The notes under the pieces: model-generated
What the model was told of the DNA's origin: nothing
The model's database searches: none
What the model saw: only the letters and a program-made list of their open reading frames with translations
Part shown: positions 52,847 through 64,000 of the stretch, in pieces
Layout of the letters: each line of letters starts with the position of its first letter
How positions within the stretch are numbered: the first letter of the stretch is position 1
Sequence record: PZ452608.1
Strand: one strand, 5' to 3'
Origin: a phage
DNA: 64,000 nucleotides
Translations under genes and position numbers: made by a program

Positions 52847-53117
52847 AGAAAAGTGGGAGATTTTACCATTAGTCAGTGAAGGAGGTAATGGTTGTGAAAT
52901 GTACATGATACGTGGTCATGTTCCAGAGCCAATTGCACTTGAGATGGTAAACAACTTTACAGATGGTTCTTACAAAGACTTAGGCGAACCAACTGTCAAG
53001 CAACAATGGGTTAAACCTGTACCAGACAGCACAGGTAACTGTAGTGTACTTTATCACGTTGTAGACCCTGCAAAATGCAAATCTGCAATGGCAGTAACAA
53101 ACGTAACTTTTGATTGA
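52839..53117 (+). CDS. Hypothetical protein
   Basis: 92 aa ORF overlapping HNH gene end. Confidence 0.4.
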   Translation: MTKEKWEILPLVSEGGNGCEMYMIRGHVPEPIALEMVNNFTDGSYKDLGEPTVKQQWVKPVPDSTGNCSVLYHVVDPAKCKSAMAVTNVTFD

Positions 53118-53128
53118 GAGAGAAAACT

Positions 53129-54010
53129 ATGAAAACATCTATCCGTGTTACAGTTCATTCACCAACTAAAGGGACTCATGAAGAAGAGTTTAACATCGTC
53201 CAATTCCCTTCTGGTGAGATTGGTGGACACTTTTCGCCAGAGTTTGTTGATTTTACTGCTTATGCAGCATCATCCATCAACAATGTGATTATGATTGTAA
53301 AAGGTTATGACAAGGACACATTGTTTGCTGTGGCACTTGCTAAAGAAGCAATTGATGATTTAATTCCTCATGATTATGCTTTAAAGACTGTCATCTTTTA
53401 CTACTTACCAAATGCACGATATGACCGTCACATGTTTAAAGGTGACGCAGCAGCTTTAAAGGTTTTTGCTAAACAGATTAATGCAATGGGATTTGGCGCA
53501 GTCTGTGCAGTTGACCCTCACAGCTATGTACCAGATAACCTGTTTAACTGCTTCCAGAGTATTCCTCAAAAGGAGATTGCAGTCCACTATGCAAATGACC
53601 CACTGGTTGATTACTTAGTAGCCCCAGATGCAGGTGCTGCTAAGAAGGTTGCAGAGACCGCTAAAGAGGTGGATAAACCATATATCACAATGTCTAAGGT
53701 GCGTAACCTTAAGACTGGTGAAATTACTGGTATGCGAATCCTTGATGATGTTGATTTGACAGATAAAACCGTCATGATTCTGGATGATATCTGTGATGGT
53801 GGTCGAACCTTCATAGAAGCAGCTAAGCATCTCCGTGAAGCAGGTGCAAAACGTGTGGAACTCTATGTAACACATGGTATCTTCTCTAAAGATGTTGAAA
53901 ACCTTCTTGACAATGGTATTGACCATATCTACACTACAAACTCTTTAGGGGAAGCTAAAGACCGTGGCTTAACACATTATGGTCAAGTTACTGTAGCAAA
54001 CCTTGATTGA
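53129..54010 (+). CDS. Ribose-phosphate pyrophosphokinase family enzyme (Prs-like; possibly ADPR-PP synthetase type)
   Basis: PRTase signature VMILDDICDGGRTFIEAAKHLREAGAKRV and LVAPDAGAAKKVAE; divergent N-terminal half; ATG at 53129 (track start 53114 is TTG). Confidence 0.75.
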   Translation: MKTSIRVTVHSPTKGTHEEEFNIVQFPSGEIGGHFSPEFVDFTAYAASSINNVIMIVKGYDKDTLFAVALAKEAIDDLIPHDYALKTVIFYYLPNARYDRHMFKGDAAALKVFAKQINAMGFGAVCAVDPHSYVPDNLFNCFQSIPQKEIAVHYANDPLVDYLVAPDAGAAKKVAETAKEVDKPYITMSKVRNLKTGEITGMRILDDVDLTDKTVMILDDICDGGRTFIEAAKHLREAGAKRVELYVTHGIFSKDVENLLDNGIDHIYTTNSLGEAKDRGLTHYGQVTVANLD

Positions 54011-54018
54011 AACTTTAT

Positions 54019-54041
54019 AGGGGCTTAAAAGCCCCATTTTG
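54019..54041 (+). terminator. Terminator-like hairpin (interrupted U-tract)
   Basis: GGGGCT-TAAA-AGCCCC followed by ATTTTG. Confidence 0.4.
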
Positions 54042-54055
54042 AGAGAGATTAAAAG

Positions 54056-55837
54056 ATGACTAAATCACTTTATGCAGTACCAGCAGGTTTAAATGCAGAT
54101 GCTTACAAATCTGGTCATGTTTACCAGTATCCTAGTGCAACAGAATACTTGATGTTCAACCTGACACCACGTAGTGATAAATGGTTTAACAGCCCTTTAG
54201 CAATTGACGGTGTAGTGGCTTTTGGTATTCAACGTTTTGTTAAAGATTACTTGATAGACCACTGGAACGCCACTTTCTTTGAACGTGATAAAAAAGAAGC
54301 CATTGATGAAATCTTAGAAGTCATGAATGGTGTTCTGGGTAAAGATGCTATCGGTCGAGAGCATTGGGAAGCACTTCACGACTTAGGTTATCTACCAGTT
54401 GAAGTATACGCTGTAGAAGAAGGTACAGTTGTCCCTATGCGTGTCCCAATGATTGTCTTCCAGAACACTGTTTCAGGTTTCCATTGGGTAGCGGGATATC
54501 TGGAAGATGCTTTCTCTGCTGAGATTTGGAAGGCTTGTACCATTGCAACTATTGCATTGCATTATAAACGCATCTGTAAGAAGTGGGCTGACCTTACTTG
54601 CGACAATGACTTACATTTACCTTATCAGTGCCATGACTTTGCTATGCGTGGTATGTCCGGCTTTACTGATGACGCATTTAACGCTGTAGGCCACTTAACC
54701 AGCTTTAAAGGGACTGATAGCTTCCCTGCTGTATATACAGCTAAACGCATCTACGGACAGTCTTACCCAGTCTCTGATATTGGTGGTTCTGTACCAGCCA
54801 CTGAACACTCTGTAATGTGTGCAAACATTGCTTGGGAAGGTGGTAATGAGTTGGTTGAAGAAGAAAGACGCTTTAAAGGTGAGTTGCAAACCTTCCGTCG
54901 CTTCTTAACAGAAACTTATCCAACTGGTATTGCAAGTATTGTTTCAGATACTTATAACTTCTGGAGAACTGTGTCAGAAATCTTACCAGCACTCCGTAAA
55001 GAAATTATGGAACGTGACGGTAAACTGGTGATTCGTCCTGATTCTGGAGACCCTGTACATATTGTCACAGGTTATAAAGCAATCCACTTAGAATGTGCTA
55101 AGAAGGCTTATTACGAGCACCTAAGCAAGCTGGAAGCCAGTGACACAATGCTGAATGCTGTTCTGAACATGAAGCTTGAAAATATCAGCTATGGTATTGC
55201 TGGATGGCTACTGTCAGAAGGCTACGAAATGGTTGTTGACAGAGAAGACTTTGAAGTTGCTGACACAGTGATGTTGAAAAATGCTTATATGGTTGGTTCT
55301 GCAAACGTTGTAACACGTCCTGTAGCTGAGATTGATGGAGCTATTAAGACTCTGTATAACATCTTTGGAGGAACTATTAACTCTAAAGGTTTTAAGGTAC
55401 TGGATGAGCACATTGGACTTATCTATGGCGACTCTATCACGTTGGAACGTGCAAACGAAATCCTGAAGCGTCTGTATGAAATGGGGTTTGCAAGCTCTAA
55501 CGTGGTGTTTGGTGTAGGCTCTTACACTTACCAGTACATGACTCGTGACACCTTTGCATTTGCTGTCAAAGCAACTCTTGCAAGCATTGGTGGCAAAGAG
55601 ATTATGCTTGCAAAAGACCCTAAAACAGATAGTGGTGTTAAGAAATCTGCCTTTGGTGGTGTAGCACCTATGTGGGATGGTGAGAATTTGAAAGCTGTAG
55701 ATGGCTATGGATTCCAGAGCTTTGCAGATGCACTTGAACATCCAGCTTGTGCTTTACGTTTAGTCTTTAGCGACTCTGAGCAGTACGGTTACACAACTCT
55801 TGGTGATATTCGAAATAATATTGACAAGCAGCTTTAA
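54056..55837 (+). CDS. Nicotinamide phosphoribosyltransferase family enzyme (NAMPT/NadV-like)
   Basis: N-terminal NADAYKSGHVYQYP resembles the NAMPT DSYK...QYP region; 593 aa. Confidence 0.75.
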   Translation: MTKSLYAVPAGLNADAYKSGHVYQYPSATEYLMFNLTPRSDKWFNSPLAIDGVVAFGIQRFVKDYLIDHWNATFFERDKKEAIDEILEVMNGVLGKDAIGREHWEALHDLGYLPVEVYAVEEGTVVPMRVPMIVFQNTVSGFHWVAGYLEDAFSAEIWKACTIATIALHYKRICKKWADLTCDNDLHLPYQCHDFAMRGMSGFTDDAFNAVGHLTSFKGTDSFPAVYTAKRIYGQSYPVSDIGGSVPATEHSVMCANIAWEGGNELVEEERRFKGELQTFRRFLTETYPTGIASIVSDTYNFWRTVSEILPALRKEIMERDGKLVIRPDSGDPVHIVTGYKAIHLECAKKAYYEHLSKLEASDTMLNAVLNMKLENISYGIAGWLLSEGYEMVVDREDFEVADTVMLKNAYMVGSANVVTRPVAEIDGAIKTLYNIFGGTINSKGFKVLDEHIGLIYGDSITLERANEILKRLYEMGFASSNVVFGVGSYTYQYMTRDTFAFAVKATLASIGGKEIMLAKDPKTDSGVKKSAFGGVAPMWDGENLKAVDGYGFQSFADALEHPACALRLVFSDSEQYGYTTLGDIRNNIDKQL

Positions 55838-56412: not shown

Positions 56413-58779
56413 ATGCGCATGGTAAATGACCACGCAGAAGTGATTAAGAGTTCAACTTCTTTAGAGACGTCTCAAGCACAGATTACAATGACACCTGAGA
56501 TGTTCAGCCTTTTGAGTTCTGGTGTATATACCTTTAAAGAAAGGGCAGTGATTCGTGAACTGTCATGTAACGCAGTAGATGCTCAGAAAGAAGCTGGAAA
56601 AGAGAACATTCCGTTCCATGTGCATTTACCTACTCGTTTTGAGCCTTACTTTGAAGTTCGTGATTTTGGAACTGGATTGACTCATGATAAAGTTATGAGT
56701 TTGTACCTAAACTACGGGGCTTCTACGAAGAATGACTCTAATGACTACATTGGTGCAATGGGTATCGGCTCAAAATCCCCATTTGCAATTGCTCAGTCAT
56801 TCACAGTATCTAGCTATGTTGATGGTGTTGTTAATAAGTACTCTGTTTATCTTGAGAATGGTATCCCTCAAGTAACTAAGCTGACCACTAACCCAACAAA
56901 AGAACCTAATGGTTTAGCTGTACGTGTGGCAGTTGCTGACCACCGTATCTCAAAGTTCTTTGAAGAAGCTGGAAATGTGTACTCATACTTCACTGTAAAA
57001 CCAGAAAGTAATATTGAGTACGACGATGTATTAGCAGATATGAACGTCATTGCCCGTGAAGAAGGTGTTTATGATGCCATGATTCATAAGCAAAGCTGGC
57101 GTTCTAGTGGTAACAGGACAGAGTTTAATGTGGTGATGGGTAATATTGCCTATCCAGTGAACATGGAAGCATTACTTGGTGATGATTTCTTCAAAGTCTT
57201 GCCAGAGTTTTTCCGTAGGAGCGTAGACCTTGTAAACATCTACATGCCTATTGGTTCAGTTGCTATAGCAGCTTCTCGTGAAGCATTGCAGATGAATGAT
57301 ACGACAAAAAATGTTATCATCGAGGCTACCAAAAAGATAACTGAAGCAATTACAAAGGATGTTATCAAGAAAGTTAATAGCCAACCTACACTCATGGATG
57401 CTGCACAGGCTTATGCAGAGCTACGTTTGAACTCACGAGAGATGTTTAATGCTGTGTGTCCAAAGCTAGAGTGGGGAGGCATTAAGCTTGATTCTCTGGA
57501 AGAAGAATTGTTAAACATTCGTCGTGGAATTATCTACGCAGAAGACGGCTCAGTCATTTATGAACGTGACGGTAAAGGCAATATTAAGGTTGATAGGAAC
57601 GGGAACAATATCCCTAAAGTAGATTATCTTTATGACCCAGTTGCTTATGTCAAGTTCAACTCTTTAGAGAGTAAGATTCGTGCAACAGCACTTTCCTACA
57701 CTCAAGAGGCAAGCATGTTCAATATCTTTGGTGCAATGCGTAAAAGCCAAATTGAACAGTTTTTGTTCGTGATTAATGACCGTCGCAATAAAAACGGTAC
57801 TGAGAAGACTGTAGGACGCAATCAAATTTTGCGTGGTGCATGTCGAGACTACGCCAGTGAGTCAAATCTGTTTCACAGATACAATGGTATTGTCTTTGTA
57901 TTCTCGACTGAAAAAGAGTTAGATGATTTAATCAATCTACACAAACTTGATAAAAGCTTGTTAAAGATTGTGAAGATGTCTGATAAGGAACACCACTATC
58001 AGCGTAAAGAAGCTGTAAGGGGTGTTGTAAAACTCTGGAAAGCTGTTCCAGCAGAAACTAAAGCTTCATACAAAGAGGTGTCAGAAGACTTAGACACAAT
58101 TGAAGAGCCTCAGCTTTATATTAAGGCAGTAGGTGACACAGTTGATGGTAGATGTTTTTGCTCATCTCCAGAGGATGTAGCTAAGTCAGTTGCTAATGTT
58201 ACAGGCAAGACAGTCTATGTTTTCCGAAAAGCAAATTGGAAAAAGATACCAGAAGACTGGATTGAAGTAGATGAGAAGCTCTTGAACGACAGCTTAACTG
58301 ATGTTCATTGGATTAACCATAACAGGTATATGACACGCATCTACATGGATGGTGTCCTCGACCTTACAAGCAGTTGGATTATTGCCAGAAACTTTACGTT
58401 CAATAACAGGAAGATTTCTCGCGGGTATTGTTATTCAAGGGATACTATTAAGACAATCTTCTTAGAAGGGAATGAAGATGCTGTTGAGGCAATGTTCGGT
58501 AAGATTCAGTATGTGGCTGCACCGTTTGCATACACTTACACTATCAGTGTTCTTCAGGATTTGAAGTCATGCCTTGATAATGACACAAAACTGTACAAAA
58601 AGATTAAAAAAGCAGGTGACCGCATGGTTATCAAGCTGACAAACTATCTTTCAAAAAGAAAACAAGAAAACTTCTTGCTTTCACACTTAGATTGGAATAA
58701 AGTATCACCTATCGAAGTGAGTAAGTTTTTAGGCTTTAATGTGAAATGTGTTCCAGAAGGTACAACAATTTACGATTAA
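56413..58779 (+). CDS. rIIA: rIIA-like protein with N-terminal GHKL ATPase domain
   Basis: GHKL motifs VIRELSCNAVDA, RDFGTGL and GAMGIGSKSPF; followed by an rIIB-like gene. Confidence 0.7.
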   Translation: MRMVNDHAEVIKSSTSLETSQAQITMTPEMFSLLSSGVYTFKERAVIRELSCNAVDAQKEAGKENIPFHVHLPTRFEPYFEVRDFGTGLTHDKVMSLYLNYGASTKNDSNDYIGAMGIGSKSPFAIAQSFTVSSYVDGVVNKYSVYLENGIPQVTKLTTNPTKEPNGLAVRVAVADHRISKFFEEAGNVYSYFTVKPESNIEYDDVLADMNVIAREEGVYDAMIHKQSWRSSGNRTEFNVVMGNIAYPVNMEALLGDDFFKVLPEFFRRSVDLVNIYMPIGSVAIAASREALQMNDTTKNVIIEATKKITEAITKDVIKKVNSQPTLMDAAQAYAELRLNSREMFNAVCPKLEWGGIKLDSLEEELLNIRRGIIYAEDGSVIYERDGKGNIKVDRNGNNIPKVDYLYDPVAYVKFNSLESKIRATALSYTQEASMFNIFGAMRKSQIEQFLFVINDRRNKNGTEKTVGRNQILRGACRDYASESNLFHRYNGIVFVFSTEKELDDLINLHKLDKSLLKIVKMSDKEHHYQRKEAVRGVVKLWKAVPAETKASYKEVSEDLDTIEEPQLYIKAVGDTVDGRCFCSSPEDVAKSVANVTGKTVYVFRKANWKKIPEDWIEVDEKLLNDSLTDVHWINHNRYMTRIYMDGVLDLTSSWIIARNFTFNNRKISRGYCYSRDTIKTIFLEGNEDAVEAMFGKIQYVAAPFAYTYTISVLQDLKSCLDNDTKLYKKIKKAGDRMVIKLTNYLSKRKQENFLLSHLDWNKVSPIEVSKFLGFNVKCVPEGTTIYD

Positions 58780-60068: not shown

Positions 60069-60617
60069 ATGAAGAAATTGATTCTAGGTTTGTGCTTAAT
60101 GTTTACAGCACACTTATCTTATGCAGTTGACTGCCCAGAACTATCAATTAGCCAAAAAGTGAACATGTTAAAAGCTTACCAGTATGGTGAGAATAACATG
60201 GGTAAAGGTTGGGGTATCACTCTAGCAGCTATAGCCTTACAAGAGTCAGAGTTAGGTCTGAAGGTAGAAAATAAAAAGACCCATGACTATGGTATCTTCC
60301 AGAATCACTTGAAGACTGTTGTAAAGCGTAACAAAATTAGTCCTAATGTTGCTAAAAAGAAACTCTTAAAAGATTTTGACTATGCCGCAAAAGAAACACA
60401 TAAAGAGCTTGAGTTTTGGACGAAGGTGCATGGTCACCCAAAGTCAAAGAAGACTTTACAAAAAGTTTTAGCATCATATAATGCTGGGTATTCGTACAGA
60501 ATCCCTAAAGCTAAGAAATATTCTCAAGATGTCTATAACAACATGAAAGTTATTGCTCAATGTGAATTTGCAACAAACATTTCTAAGGTAAACCATGAAA
60601 AAATTAAAAAAGTCTGA
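60069..60617 (+). CDS. Secreted lytic transglycosylase-like protein (endolysin candidate)
   Basis: Signal peptide MKKLILGLCLMFTAHLSYA; SLT-like catalytic region ALQESELGLK...THDYGIFQ. Confidence 0.5.
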   Translation: MKKLILGLCLMFTAHLSYAVDCPELSISQKVNMLKAYQYGENNMGKGWGITLAAIALQESELGLKVENKKTHDYGIFQNHLKTVVKRNKISPNVAKKKLLKDFDYAAKETHKELEFWTKVHGHPKSKKTLQKVLASYNAGYSYRIPKAKKYSQDVYNNMKVIAQCEFATNISKVNHEKIKKV

Positions 60618-61290
60618 TGAAGTCCTGTGCCACGCTTATGACTTACATCCTCATGAGTTAGGTCTTGATTCCTGTGTATGGACTCCAGAACAGTGTAGGG
60701 ATTTTGAAGACACTGCAAGAGAAGTTGTATGTTCACTGGAAGAGTTCCACACATCAGAACCAATTGTGAACGTTGTGGACAAAGAGACTGGACAAACTAT
60801 AGGTGTAAGGCGCGATAGTTTAGTCATAGTCAATAAAGACCTTGTAGAAAAAGGTAACCTCATCTTAGCAGATATTGATGGTGTTCTTACAAATTTTAAT
60901 CACGAAGATTGCTCAACGGAATTGACTGATGGGTCATTCTCACAGTACACTAATCTTCTTGATTCTGTAAGAGCAAAGCCAACATATGTTTTCAACATTA
61001 TTGATGCAATTGCAAATCATGCAGCAGTTGGACTCTTGACAGCAAGAGGTGAATCTCAGAGAATACCTACTGAGATGTTTTTAAGGCACAATATAGAGCA
61101 TGATTACTTGCTTTTTATGCGTGGTTTTGGAACTAACTCTATAAGTGCAGAAAGTTTGAAAGTGAGGATGATTCAGTCTTGCATTCTTCCTTACTTTAAT
61201 ATAGTATGCTTTATAGAAGATACAGAGAATAATGTTCAGAAGGTAAACAGAATCCTTCCACACATTAAAACTATGTTAGTTAAACATTGA
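60595..61290 (+). CDS. Protein with HAD-superfamily phosphatase-like motif (candidate)
   Basis: Motif I-like LILADIDGVLTNF (DxDGV) in the C-terminal half. Confidence 0.35.
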   Translation: MKKLKKSDEVLCHAYDLHPHELGLDSCVWTPEQCRDFEDTAREVVCSLEEFHTSEPIVNVVDKETGQTIGVRRDSLVIVNKDLVEKGNLILADIDGVLTNFNHEDCSTELTDGSFSQYTNLLDSVRAKPTYVFNIIDAIANHAAVGLLTARGESQRIPTEMFLRHNIEHDYLLFMRGFGTNSISAESLKVRMIQSCILPYFNIVCFIEDTENNVQKVNRILPHIKTMLVKH

Positions 61291-61776: not shown

Positions 61777-61800
61777 CAGGCTCCTTCGGGAGCCTTTTTC
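61777..61800 (+). terminator. Intrinsic terminator
   Basis: AGGCTCC-TTCG-GGAGCCT followed by TTTTT. Confidence 0.7.
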
Positions 61801-63138: not shown

Positions 63139-63339
63139 ATGGCTGACTTCTGCAAAGACTGTTCTATAGAAATGTTTGGACGTGATACAGGTGACTTAAA
63201 AGGTCTTATCACTGAAGATGACTTTAAAGCTGGCTATGCAATGCCAGTAATCTGTGAAGGTTGTGGATGTATCTGGGTAGACCATGAGGGGCAACGTGTA
63301 AAACCTTCAGAAGATAAAGAATCTTGGGAGAGATGTTAA
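63139..63339 (+). CDS. Small zinc-ribbon protein
   Basis: CKDC ... CEGCGC cysteine pairs. Confidence 0.45.
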   Translation: MADFCKDCSIEMFGRDTGDLKGLITEDDFKAGYAMPVICEGCGCIWVDHEGQRVKPSEDKESWERC

Positions 63340-64000
63340 ATGGGTATTGTAAAAATAATCAATGGTGATATCTTTGCCGCATTTGATAAAGGTAAGTTTG
63401 ACATCATCGGTCACGGTTGCAACTGTATGAATTTAATGGGTGCAGGTATCGCTGACAAGATTTCTAAACTTTACCCAAAAGCATATGAGACCGATACAGA
63501 AGTTTATCTATATGCAGGTGGTATAGGACACAAACCCTGTGAAAATTTACTGGGTAATTTCTCTGTAGCACGTTTAAAACAAGGTCGTATAGCTAACCTT
63601 TACACTCAGCTTAAGACTGGTAAAGATGCCCGATACAGTGCTTTAGAGTCATCTTTGAAACAGCTTAACAGATACTGTGAAGTTAATCAGTTGAGGAAAG
63701 TTGGTTTACCTATGATTGGTGCAGGTATCGGTGGGTTGGACCCTCAAGCCGTCACAGTTATCATCAATCAGGTGATGAAGAGTGTAGATGTTTATCTATA
63801 TGTCTATGAAGGAGAGATGTACCACAAGTTACGCTCAGGTTGGAATAACTACTGTGAACCAGAATACTTTGCAGGTGTAGTAACGTTCAAAGATGATACA
63901 GTTACCCTCTTCAGACGAAGAAAAGGTAAGATACATCAAAGTAACCCTCCGGTTGAGAAGATGTCTCTAAGTAACGCTCTAGTTACCCACCTGTCGAAGA
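63340..64000 (+). CDS. Macro-domain (ADP-ribose binding/processing) protein, 3-prime end beyond window
   Basis: NGDIFAAFDKGKFDIIGHGCNCMNLMGAGIADKI and VGLPMIGAGIGGLDP resemble macro-domain diphosphate-binding loops; ORF open to the window end. Confidence 0.5.
   Translation, partial: MGIVKIINGDIFAAFDKGKFDIIGHGCNCMNLMGAGIADKISKLYPKAYETDTEVYLYAGGIGHKPCENLLGNFSVARLKQGRIANLYTQLKTGKDARYSALESSLKQLNRYCEVNQLRKVGLPMIGAGIGGLDPQAVTVIINQVMKSVDVYLYVYEGEMYHKLRSGWNNYCEPEYFAGVVTFKDDTVTLFRRRKGKIHQSNPPVEKMSLSNALVTHLSK

What the first reader, a model, noticed from the sequence alone, without database searches (positions are those of the whole stretch)
63340..64000. Macro-domain protein at the window edge, downstream of the NAD module
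The partial ORF has macro-domain-like loops (GDIF..., HGCNCMNLMGAGIA, GLPMIGAGIGGLDP). Macro domains bind or hydrolyse ADP-ribose derivatives. In a phage that may also rebuild NAD+, such an enzyme could reverse ADP-ribosylation by host defences or process ADPR-derived signalling molecules. The C-terminal part, beyond residue about 160, continues past the window and is unassigned.
Basis: partly seen in the sequence, partly recalled or inferred. Interest (0 to 1): 0.5.

Follow-up and report, generated by a model that had tools for sequence, protein, structure and literature searches.

The report
Phage macrodomain enzyme, Tk.4/AdfM type
The ORF at the window edge is a real, already annotated phage gene for an ADP-ribose-removing "macrodomain" enzyme; it is closest to a phage T4 protein recently shown to defeat a bacterial DNA-ADP-ribosylating defence, and it carries an extra tail domain of unknown function.

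Summary
An ORF starts at ATG 63340 and runs off the window. The window is a Felixounavirus of the wV8 type. In complete genomes the ORF is 261 aa (WV8_gp012), annotated as "phosphatase" or "macro domain protein".

- **Macrodomain, residues 1-157.** Pfam Macro scores 31.6 bits against a cutoff of 22. The AF2 model has pLDDT 91.5. The best solved matches are TARG1, Poa1p and DarG.
- **Closest characterised relative.** This is T4 Tk.4 (35% identity, E 3e-24), named AdfM in a 2025 preprint because its deletion sensitises T4 to DarTG2. HMM scores and an NJ bootstrap place gp012 with Tk.4, not with the NARP1-embedded ADPR-1''-phosphatase Adpp.
- **Active site.** The catalytic Lys of DarG and TARG1 is an invariant Gln in this clade, as in Tk.4.
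- **"NAD module".** The genes at 53114-55837 are the NARP1 pair, Adps and Namat. NARP1 was discovered in the Felixounavirus Bas63. It lies 7.5 kb and 13 ORFs upstream, in a different transcription unit.
- **C-terminal domain, residues 158-261.** It is beta-rich, evolves fast, is restricted to Ounavirinae-like phages, and has no detectable relative.

The most likely role is counter-defence de-ADP-ribosylation (anti-DarT2). An Adpp-like role is the main rival. This is a new variant of a known kind, of moderate interest.

The parts
63340..63810 (+). N-terminal macrodomain (residues 1-157) of the WV8_gp012 homologue. It carries the motifs HGCNC, MGAGIA, NLYTQ and PMIGAGIGG.
   Evidence: Pfam Macro covers residues 25-141 above the gathering score. 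The AF2 model has pLDDT 91.5. Foldseek target-normalised TM-scores are 0.86 to TARG1, 0.84 to TaqDarG and 0.77 to Poa1p. Identity to T4 Tk.4 is 35% with E 3e-24.
63811..64000 (+). First 63 residues of the C-terminal beta-rich domain (residues 158-261). The ORF would end at window-equivalent position 64125, outside the window.
63139..63339 (+). Upstream 66-aa Cys-rich ORF (WV8_gp011, phrog_2210). Its stop codon abuts the macro gene's ATG.
   Evidence: Whether it is a functional partner was not established.
61778..61795 (+). Intrinsic terminator that closes the preceding unit. The macro gene is the last of the seven ORFs between this terminator and the next one, which lies just past the window.
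   Evidence: Terminator scan on the wV8 record and an exact match in the window. wV8 annotation.
53114..55837 (+). It is a Prs-like gene (Adps, 53114-54010) plus a NAMPT-like gene (Namat, 54056-55837), that is, NARP1.
   Evidence: Pfam hits. 35% and 38% identity to the Adps and Namat of Vibrio phage K354. NARP1 was defined in the Felixounavirus Bas63, genes 79-80. The module is conserved in 233 of 255 Felixounavirus-like records.

Best explanation
The gene encodes a 261-aa two-domain counter-defence protein.

**Shown or strongly supported.** The N-terminal 157 residues form a macrodomain of the Poa1p/TARG1/DarG class. It belongs to the same phage clade as T4 Tk.4 (AdfM).

**Inferred.** The domain binds the ADP-ribose moiety through its two Gly-rich loops (MGAGIA and GAGIGG) and through the conserved Asn28, His25 and Thr89-Gln90. 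It hydrolyses the bond at the distal ribose C1''. The most likely substrate is ADP-ribosyl-thymidine placed on phage single-stranded DNA by DarT2-type toxins. Removing it would restore replication, as proposed for T4 Tk.4. Chemistry cannot follow the lysine route of DarG or TARG1, because that Lys is Gln here.

**Unknown.** The fast-evolving C-terminal domain is lineage-specific. It probably supplies targeting or partner binding.

The gene is the last of a small unit downstream of rIIA and rIIB.
For: - **Macro family and fold:**
- **Nearest characterised homologue is T4 Tk.4:** BLASTP 35% identity over 161 aligned columns, E 3e-24, with all four signature motifs shared.
- **HMM test:** an HMM built from Tk.4 and single-domain relatives, with no Felix-like sequences, scores the wV8 macrodomain 145 bits. 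A K354/Adpp-like HMM scores it 90 bits.
- **NJ tree:** T4 Tk.4 lies in the sister group. The first non-Felix taxa to join are Tk.4-type only in 426 of 500 bootstraps and K354-type in 0 of 500.
- **T4 genetics:** a tk.4 knockout sensitises T4 to DarTG2 (preprint).
- **PhiKZ biochemistry:** the PhiKZ macrodomain AdfM removes DarT2 ADP-ribose from DNA in vitro, and its N23A mutant is impaired. The equivalent Asn28 is invariant here.
- **FADO context:** in Bacillus phage FADO a related macro gene sits two genes from a NADAR (COG3236) gene, the anti-DarT1 enzyme type.
- **Conservation:** the gene is kept at the same position across Ounavirinae-like phages down to about 40% macrodomain identity.
Against: - No activity or phenotype data exist for any Felixounavirus macro protein.
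- The Tk.4 result is genetic, from a preprint, and its mechanism was not shown.
- The catalytic Lys of DarG (K80; K80A is inactive) and of TARG1 (K84) aligns to an invariant Gln90. TARG1 D125 aligns to Gly131. DarG W83 aligns to Thr93.
- The active-site loop HxCNC is Poa1p-like, and Poa1p is an ADPR-1''-phosphatase.
- The weak DarG-model match (47 bits against a cutoff of 250) does not discriminate. The Adpp-type K354 protein scores 42 bits.
- The same genome carries NARP1, which would benefit from an Adpp activity.
Confidence: 0.5

Rival explanations
1. Adpp-like role. The macrodomain is an ADPR-1''-phosphate phosphatase acting in trans. It would convert the product of RES-domain (aRES) NAD+ phosphorolysis into ADPR, so that the phage's own NARP1 (Adps plus Namat, 53114-55837) can rebuild NAD+.
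For: - The genome carries NARP1.
- Phage macro proteins embedded in NARP1 operons were shown to be ADPR-1P phosphatases that overcome aRES.
- The authors counted only macro genes within two genes of NARP1, so a distal one would have been missed.
- gp012 is significantly related to that family (90 bits) and shares the His...Asn...Gln pattern (HVANC and NLHAQ in K354).
- The Namat-like gene and the two-domain macro gene co-occur across the whole lineage.
Against: - The gene is 7.5 kb and 13 ORFs downstream, in another transcription unit.
- It groups with Tk.4, not with the K354 type.
- T4 has Tk.4, and no NARP1 is reported for T4 (my knowledge; not tested here).
- Co-occurrence within one syntenic lineage is weak evidence.
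- Loop 2 differs: PMIGAGIGG here against PFKMGCDRAGG in K354.
Confidence: 0.25
2. The enzyme reverses a different ADP-ribose modification, or degrades a different ADP-ribose-derived molecule. Candidates are protein or RNA ADP-ribosylation by other defence toxins, O-acetyl-ADPR, or ADPR-based immune signals.
For: Macrodomains of this class act on varied substrates: TARG1 on protein-Glu and DNA, Poa1p on ADPR-1P. Some records annotate the gene as O-acetyl-ADP-ribose deacetylase. The replacement of Lys by Gln allows a non-DarG chemistry.
Against: No specific evidence points to any of these substrates. The only phenotype known for the clade is DarTG2 sensitivity.
Confidence: 0.17
3. The protein is a non-catalytic ADP-ribose binder or sponge. 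The macrodomain would only sequester ADPR-type ligands, and the C-terminal domain would carry the function.
For: The canonical catalytic Lys and Asp of TARG1 and DarG are missing.
Against: His25, Asn28 and Gln90 are invariant across 31 diverse homologues. This pattern matches catalytically active Poa1p/Adpp-type enzymes.
Confidence: 0.05

Closest known systems
T4 Tk.4 = AdfM (anti-DarT factor Macrodomain; HIDEN-SEQ preprint 10.1101/2025.11.20.689424)
   Same: Same macrodomain clade. It shares 35% identity, the motifs HGCNC, MGxGxA, NLYTQ and PxIGAGIG, and a Gln at the DarG Lys position. Both fall in phrog_335. Felix O1's original annotation already noted the Tk.4 similarity.
   Different: Tk.4 is a 155-aa single domain. 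gp012 adds a 104-aa C-terminal domain. The genomic neighbourhoods differ: tk-vs in T4, downstream of rIIB and the spanins here. No phenotype has been measured for gp012.
PhiKZ gp104 AdfM and bacterial DarG2 macrodomain (PDB 5M3E, 5M3I)
   Same: Macro fold (target-normalised TM-score 0.81-0.84). The conserved Asn is present (N22 or N23, equivalent to Asn28 here). The Gly-rich loops are shared. The PhiKZ protein is a phage counter-defence protein.
   Different: These proteins keep the catalytic Lys (the PTK motif), whereas gp012 has Gln90. PhiKZ gp104 scores 138 bits on the DarG model against 47 bits for gp012. DarG has a DarT-binding, ssDNA-mimicking C-terminal domain unrelated to that of gp012.
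Adpp, the NARP1-associated ADPR-1''-phosphate phosphatase (Vibrio phage Gary gp137; K354 homologue)
   Same: Phage macrodomain of the Poa1p-like type with the His...Asn...Gln pattern. It occurs in a phage that carries NARP1.
   Different: It sits inside the Adps-Adpp-Namat operon. It shares only about 27% identity with gp012. It forms a separate family by HMM and by tree, and its loop 2 differs.
Human TARG1/OARD1 and yeast Poa1p
   Same: These are the best solved-structure matches by sequence profile (E 4e-17 and 4e-15) and by Foldseek. Poa1p shares the HxCNC loop.
   Different: TARG1 K84 and D125 are Gln and Gly here. Both are cellular enzymes with unrelated biology.

Membership tests
Macro domain (Pfam PF01661) | Profile match above the curated gathering score | tested here: met
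   31.6 bits for the full protein and 32.2 bits for the window part, against a cutoff of 22.
Macro domain (Pfam PF01661) | Three-layer alpha/beta/alpha macro fold | tested here: met
   AF2 pLDDT 91.5. Foldseek probability 1.00 to TARG1, Poa1p, DarG and viral macrodomains, with target-normalised TM-scores up to 0.87.
Macro domain (Pfam PF01661) | ADP-ribose binding | not testable with these tools
   Only the conserved Gly-rich loops and the Asn were seen in alignments.
T4 Tk.4 / AdfM clade | Groups with Tk.4 rather than with other phage macro families | tested here: met
   HMM scores of 145 against 90 bits. NJ sister group is Tk.4-only in 426 of 500 bootstraps and K354-type in 0 of 500.
T4 Tk.4 / AdfM clade | Signature motifs HGCNC, MGxGxA, NLYTQ and PxIGAGIG | tested here: met
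T4 Tk.4 / AdfM clade | Single-domain protein of about 155 aa | tested here: not met
   gp012 is 261 aa and has an extra C-terminal domain.
T4 Tk.4 / AdfM clade | Protects the phage from DarTG2 | not testable with these tools
   This needs a phage knockout and a DarTG2-expressing host.
DarG antitoxin (NCBIfam NF048014) | Score above the equivalog cutoff of 250 bits | tested here: not met
   47.3 bits, covering the macro part only. PADLOC DarG gives 47.2 bits.
DarG antitoxin (NCBIfam NF048014) | Catalytic lysine (TaqDarG K80) | tested here: not met
   It aligns to the invariant Gln90. K80A inactivates DarG.
DarG antitoxin (NCBIfam NF048014) | Conserved Asn (TaqDarG N22) | tested here: met
   Asn28 is invariant.
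DarG antitoxin (NCBIfam NF048014) | C-terminal DarT-binding domain and an adjacent darT gene | tested here: not met
Adpp (NARP1-AP phosphatase) | Encoded within or next to the Adps-Namat operon (within two genes) | tested here: not met
   13 ORFs and 7.5 kb downstream, with a terminator between.
Adpp (NARP1-AP phosphatase) | Sequence grouping with NARP1-embedded macro proteins | tested here: not met
Adpp (NARP1-AP phosphatase) | ADPR-1''-phosphate phosphatase activity | not testable with these tools
   This needs an enzyme assay.
TARG1/OARD1 | Catalytic Lys84 and Asp125 | tested here: not met
   They align to Gln90 and Gly131.

The most novel reading that the evidence does not exclude
gp012 would be a two-layer or dual-purpose counter-defence protein. 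In this reading the Ounavirinae-specific C-terminal domain is a new protein-binding module that either blocks DarT2 directly or docks the macrodomain onto the phage's NARP1 enzymes or replisome. The macrodomain would then serve both as a DNA de-ADP-ribosylase and as the missing trans-acting Adpp that makes Felixounavirus NARP1 resistant to aRES.
Probability: 0.15. Interest if true: 0.6.

Novelty: new variant of a known kind. Interest (0 to 1): 0.4.

Why it matters
Felixounaviruses such as Felix O1, wV8 and Bas63 are used for typing and therapy, and NARP1 was discovered in one of them. Their macro protein sits where two current lines of work meet: DarTG2 and aRES/NARP1.

Knowing which defence it neutralises would help predict host range. 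It would also show whether Tk.4-type macrodomains, which lack the DarG/TARG1 catalytic lysine, really hydrolyse DNA-linked ADP-ribose, and by what chemistry.

The orphan C-terminal domain evolves about twice as fast as the enzyme domain. That makes it a candidate new binding module in an arms race. The protein itself is already annotated and its family is known, so this is an incremental finding, not a surprise.

Tried and rejected
- **C-terminal domain in other proteins: rejected.** An exhaustive HMM search of 1.84 billion representatives gave 11 hits. The non-family hits are long repetitive proteins such as beta-propellers and retroelement repeats, with summed weak matches, so I treat them as spurious.
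- **Conserved upstream partner: not supported.** The small ORFs before the macro gene in distant relatives are not homologous to gp011, although two are also Cys-rich.
- **DarG-model score as a functional discriminator: rejected.** The Adpp-type K354 protein and FADO_33 score similarly or higher.
- **NAD module as NARP2: rejected.** The literature identifies the Felixounavirus Prs-like plus NAMPT-like pair as NARP1.
- **Technical dead ends.** The afdb50 library was unavailable. The first tree script timed out. A distance cap was needed to avoid NaN values. My guess at the Bas63 accession was wrong, so Bas63 orthology rests on taxonomy and on the conservation of the module across the genus, not on a direct alignment.

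Full report
**Observation.** The stretch 63340-64000 holds the start of a real gene. The ATG at 63340 follows the TAA of the preceding 66-codon ORF with no spacer, and the frame stays open for 220 codons to the window end.

Megablast shows the region is 100% identical to Escherichia phage wV8 and to O157 typing phages 8, 11 and 12. It is 90-99% identical to about 200 other Felixounavirus records. In complete genomes the ORF is 786 nt, giving 261 aa (WV8_gp012). It is annotated variously as "phosphatase", "macro domain protein" or "O-acetyl-ADP-ribose deacetylase". The window therefore lacks the last 41 codons.

**Macrodomain.**
- Pfam Macro matches residues 25-141 above the gathering score.
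- A profile of 31 homologues hits solved TARG1 (E 4e-17), M. tuberculosis DarG (5e-16), SCO6735, Poa1p (4e-15), BT1257 and T. aquaticus DarG.
- An AlphaFold2 model built on 29 homologues has pLDDT 91.5 and pTM 0.89.
- Foldseek returns TARG1, Poa1p and DarG first, with target-normalised TM-scores of 0.77-0.87.

Residues invariant in the family are H25, G26, N28, C29, M33, G36, A38, P46, G72, N86, L87, T89, Q90, P124, G127 and G129.

**Which macrodomain.** tblastn finds homologues of residues 3-160 in 2,842 phage records. Only 258 of these cover 80% or more of the protein. The T4-like hits are the tk.4 gene. A direct BLASTP against T4 Tk.4 gives 35% identity over the whole domain with E 3e-24. 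Felix O1's original annotation already called its orthologue the "17.5 kD protein in tk-vs intergenic region".

A 2025 preprint shows that tk.4 is the single T4 gene conditionally essential on DarTG2 hosts, and that a clean knockout sensitises T4. The authors named it AdfM and proposed, without showing it, that it removes ADP-ribose from DNA.

A separate paper gave the same name to PhiKZ gp104. That macrodomain removes DarT2-added ADP-ribose from an oligonucleotide in vitro, and its N23A mutant is impaired.

wV8 gp012, T4 Tk.4 and PhiKZ gp104 all fall in phrog_335.

**Active site.** In a joint alignment, Asn28 of gp012 aligns with DarG N22 and PhiKZ N23. The catalytic lysine of TARG1 (K84), DarG (K80) and PhiKZ (K78) aligns with the invariant Gln90 of gp012, and T4 Tk.4 has the same Gln. 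TARG1 D125 aligns with Gly131, and DarG W83 with Thr93. DarG K80A is inactive.

The first loop, HxCNC, matches Poa1p's HSCNC, whose His23 was probed by mutation. So gp012 and Tk.4 are not DarG-type in chemistry, even though Tk.4 is required against DarTG2.

The weak match to the DarG equivalog model (47 bits against a cutoff of 250) is a property of the whole class. T4 Tk.4 scores 30 bits, the K354 Adpp-type protein 42, FADO_33 71 and PhiKZ 138.

**The NAD module and a second candidate function.** The adjacent genes at 53114-54010 (Prs-like) and 54056-55837 (NAMPT-like) correspond to the pair first characterised in Bas63 (JohannRWettstein), a Felixounavirus. That pair is NARP1: Adps pyrophosphorylates ADPR, and Namat joins nicotinamide to it. 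The module is conserved in 233 of 255 Felixounavirus-like records.

A 2026 preprint reports that RES-domain defence (aRES) cleaves NAD+ to ADPR-1''-phosphate, which NARP1 cannot use. It also reports that 15% of NARP1 operons carry a Poa1p-like macro protein, Adpp, that dephosphorylates it. Only genes within two positions of NARP1 were counted.

Vibrio phage K354 shows this Adps-macro-Namat arrangement. Its macro protein has the motifs HVANC, NLHAQ and PFKMGCDRAGG, and about 27% identity to gp012. A trans-acting Adpp role for gp012 is therefore a serious rival.

**Discriminating the two.**
- I built one HMM from T4 Tk.4 plus single-domain relatives, excluding all Felix-like sequences. I built another from 61 K354-like proteins. 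The wV8 macrodomain scores 145 bits against the first and 90 bits against the second.
- In a neighbour-joining tree of 51 sequences the Felix-like proteins form a clade whose sister group contains T4 Tk.4. In 500 bootstraps the first non-Felix taxa joined were Tk.4-type only 426 times and K354-type never.
- The gene is not in the NARP1 unit. 13 ORFs lie between them, including rIIA and rIIB. It is the last of seven ORFs bounded by intrinsic terminators at 61778-61795 and just beyond the window.
- Against this, the Namat-like gene and the two-domain macro gene are both retained in the same order in distant relatives (macrodomain identity about 40%) and in Kolesnikvirus. That may simply reflect lineage-wide synteny.
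- In Bacillus phage FADO a K354-family macro gene lies two genes from a NADAR (COG3236) gene, the enzyme type that counters DarT1. Family membership therefore does not map cleanly onto one function.

**C-terminal domain.** Residues 158-261 are predicted with confidence as a six-stranded beta unit with one helix.
- It has no Pfam match.
- In BFVD it matches only the SUSP2 family member.
- An exhaustive profile search of 1.84 billion representatives finds it only fused to this macrodomain, apart from spurious repetitive hits.
- It diverges about twice as fast as the macrodomain: 46-52% against 76-81% identity in close relatives, and 16-23% against 38-54% in distant ones. It shows no conserved net charge.
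- It is unrelated to the ssDNA-mimicking C-terminal domain of DarG.

Its role is unknown. Partner or target binding is an inference from its evolutionary rate and its fusion to the enzyme domain.

**Verdict.** The protein is a Tk.4/AdfM-clade macrodomain enzyme with an added orphan domain.

| Explanation | Confidence |
|---|---|
| Anti-DarT2 de-ADP-ribosylation | about 0.5 |
| Adpp-like support of NARP1 | about 0.25 |
| Other ADP-ribose substrates | about 0.17 |
| Non-catalytic binder | about 0.05 |

It is a new variant of a known kind and of moderate interest. Simple knockout and substrate tests in Bas63 would settle it.

Noticed in passing
window 53114-55837: The Prs-like and NAMPT-like gene pair is the NARP1 operon (Adps plus Namat) first characterised in the Felixounavirus Bas63. 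It is not a canonical PRPP/NMN salvage pair. GenBank records still call the genes ribose-phosphate pyrophosphokinase and nicotinamide phosphoribosyltransferase.
   Followed up: partly
window 63139-63339: A 66-aa Cys-rich ORF (CxxC ... CxxCxC; phrog_2210) has a stop codon that abuts the macro gene's start. Small Cys-rich ORFs also precede the macro gene in two distant relatives (L006 7810-8001 and L004 1-165), but they are not detectably homologous.
   Followed up: partly
L009 (Bacillus phage FADO) 4195-5471: A COG3236/NADAR gene (fado_35) lies two genes upstream of a macro gene (fado_33). This may be a paired anti-DarT1 and anti-DarT2 cluster in a phage that also has NARP1.
   Followed up: no
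window 60069-61290 versus L001 3582-4804: The coordinate offset between the window and NC_012749 changes by 1 nt between rIIB and the macro gene. The window's ORFs 60069-60617 and 60595-61290 match Felix O1 and KP869106. The wV8 RefSeq record annotates a longer gp003 and a shorter gp004, which suggests a 1-nt indel or sequencing error in that record.
   Followed up: partly
window 56413-58779: The rIIA ORF is 788 aa here and in KP869106, but 763 aa in the wV8 and Felix O1 records. Their position 1 falls 25 codons inside the ORF, which is an artefact of where the linear records were opened.
   Followed up: no
one search hits, for example PP429241 and MW006474: Several relatives carry an HNH homing endonuclease inserted within the Adps-Namat module. 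This window does not. In addition, a record labelled Campylobacter phage A126 (MG065668, 43 kb) holds this Felixounavirus module at 94.6% identity, so it is probably mislabelled or contaminated.
   Followed up: no
literature: Two different macrodomain sub-types have independently been named AdfM. PhiKZ gp104 is DarG-like and keeps the catalytic Lys. T4 Tk.4 is Poa1p-like and has Gln at that position.
   Followed up: partly
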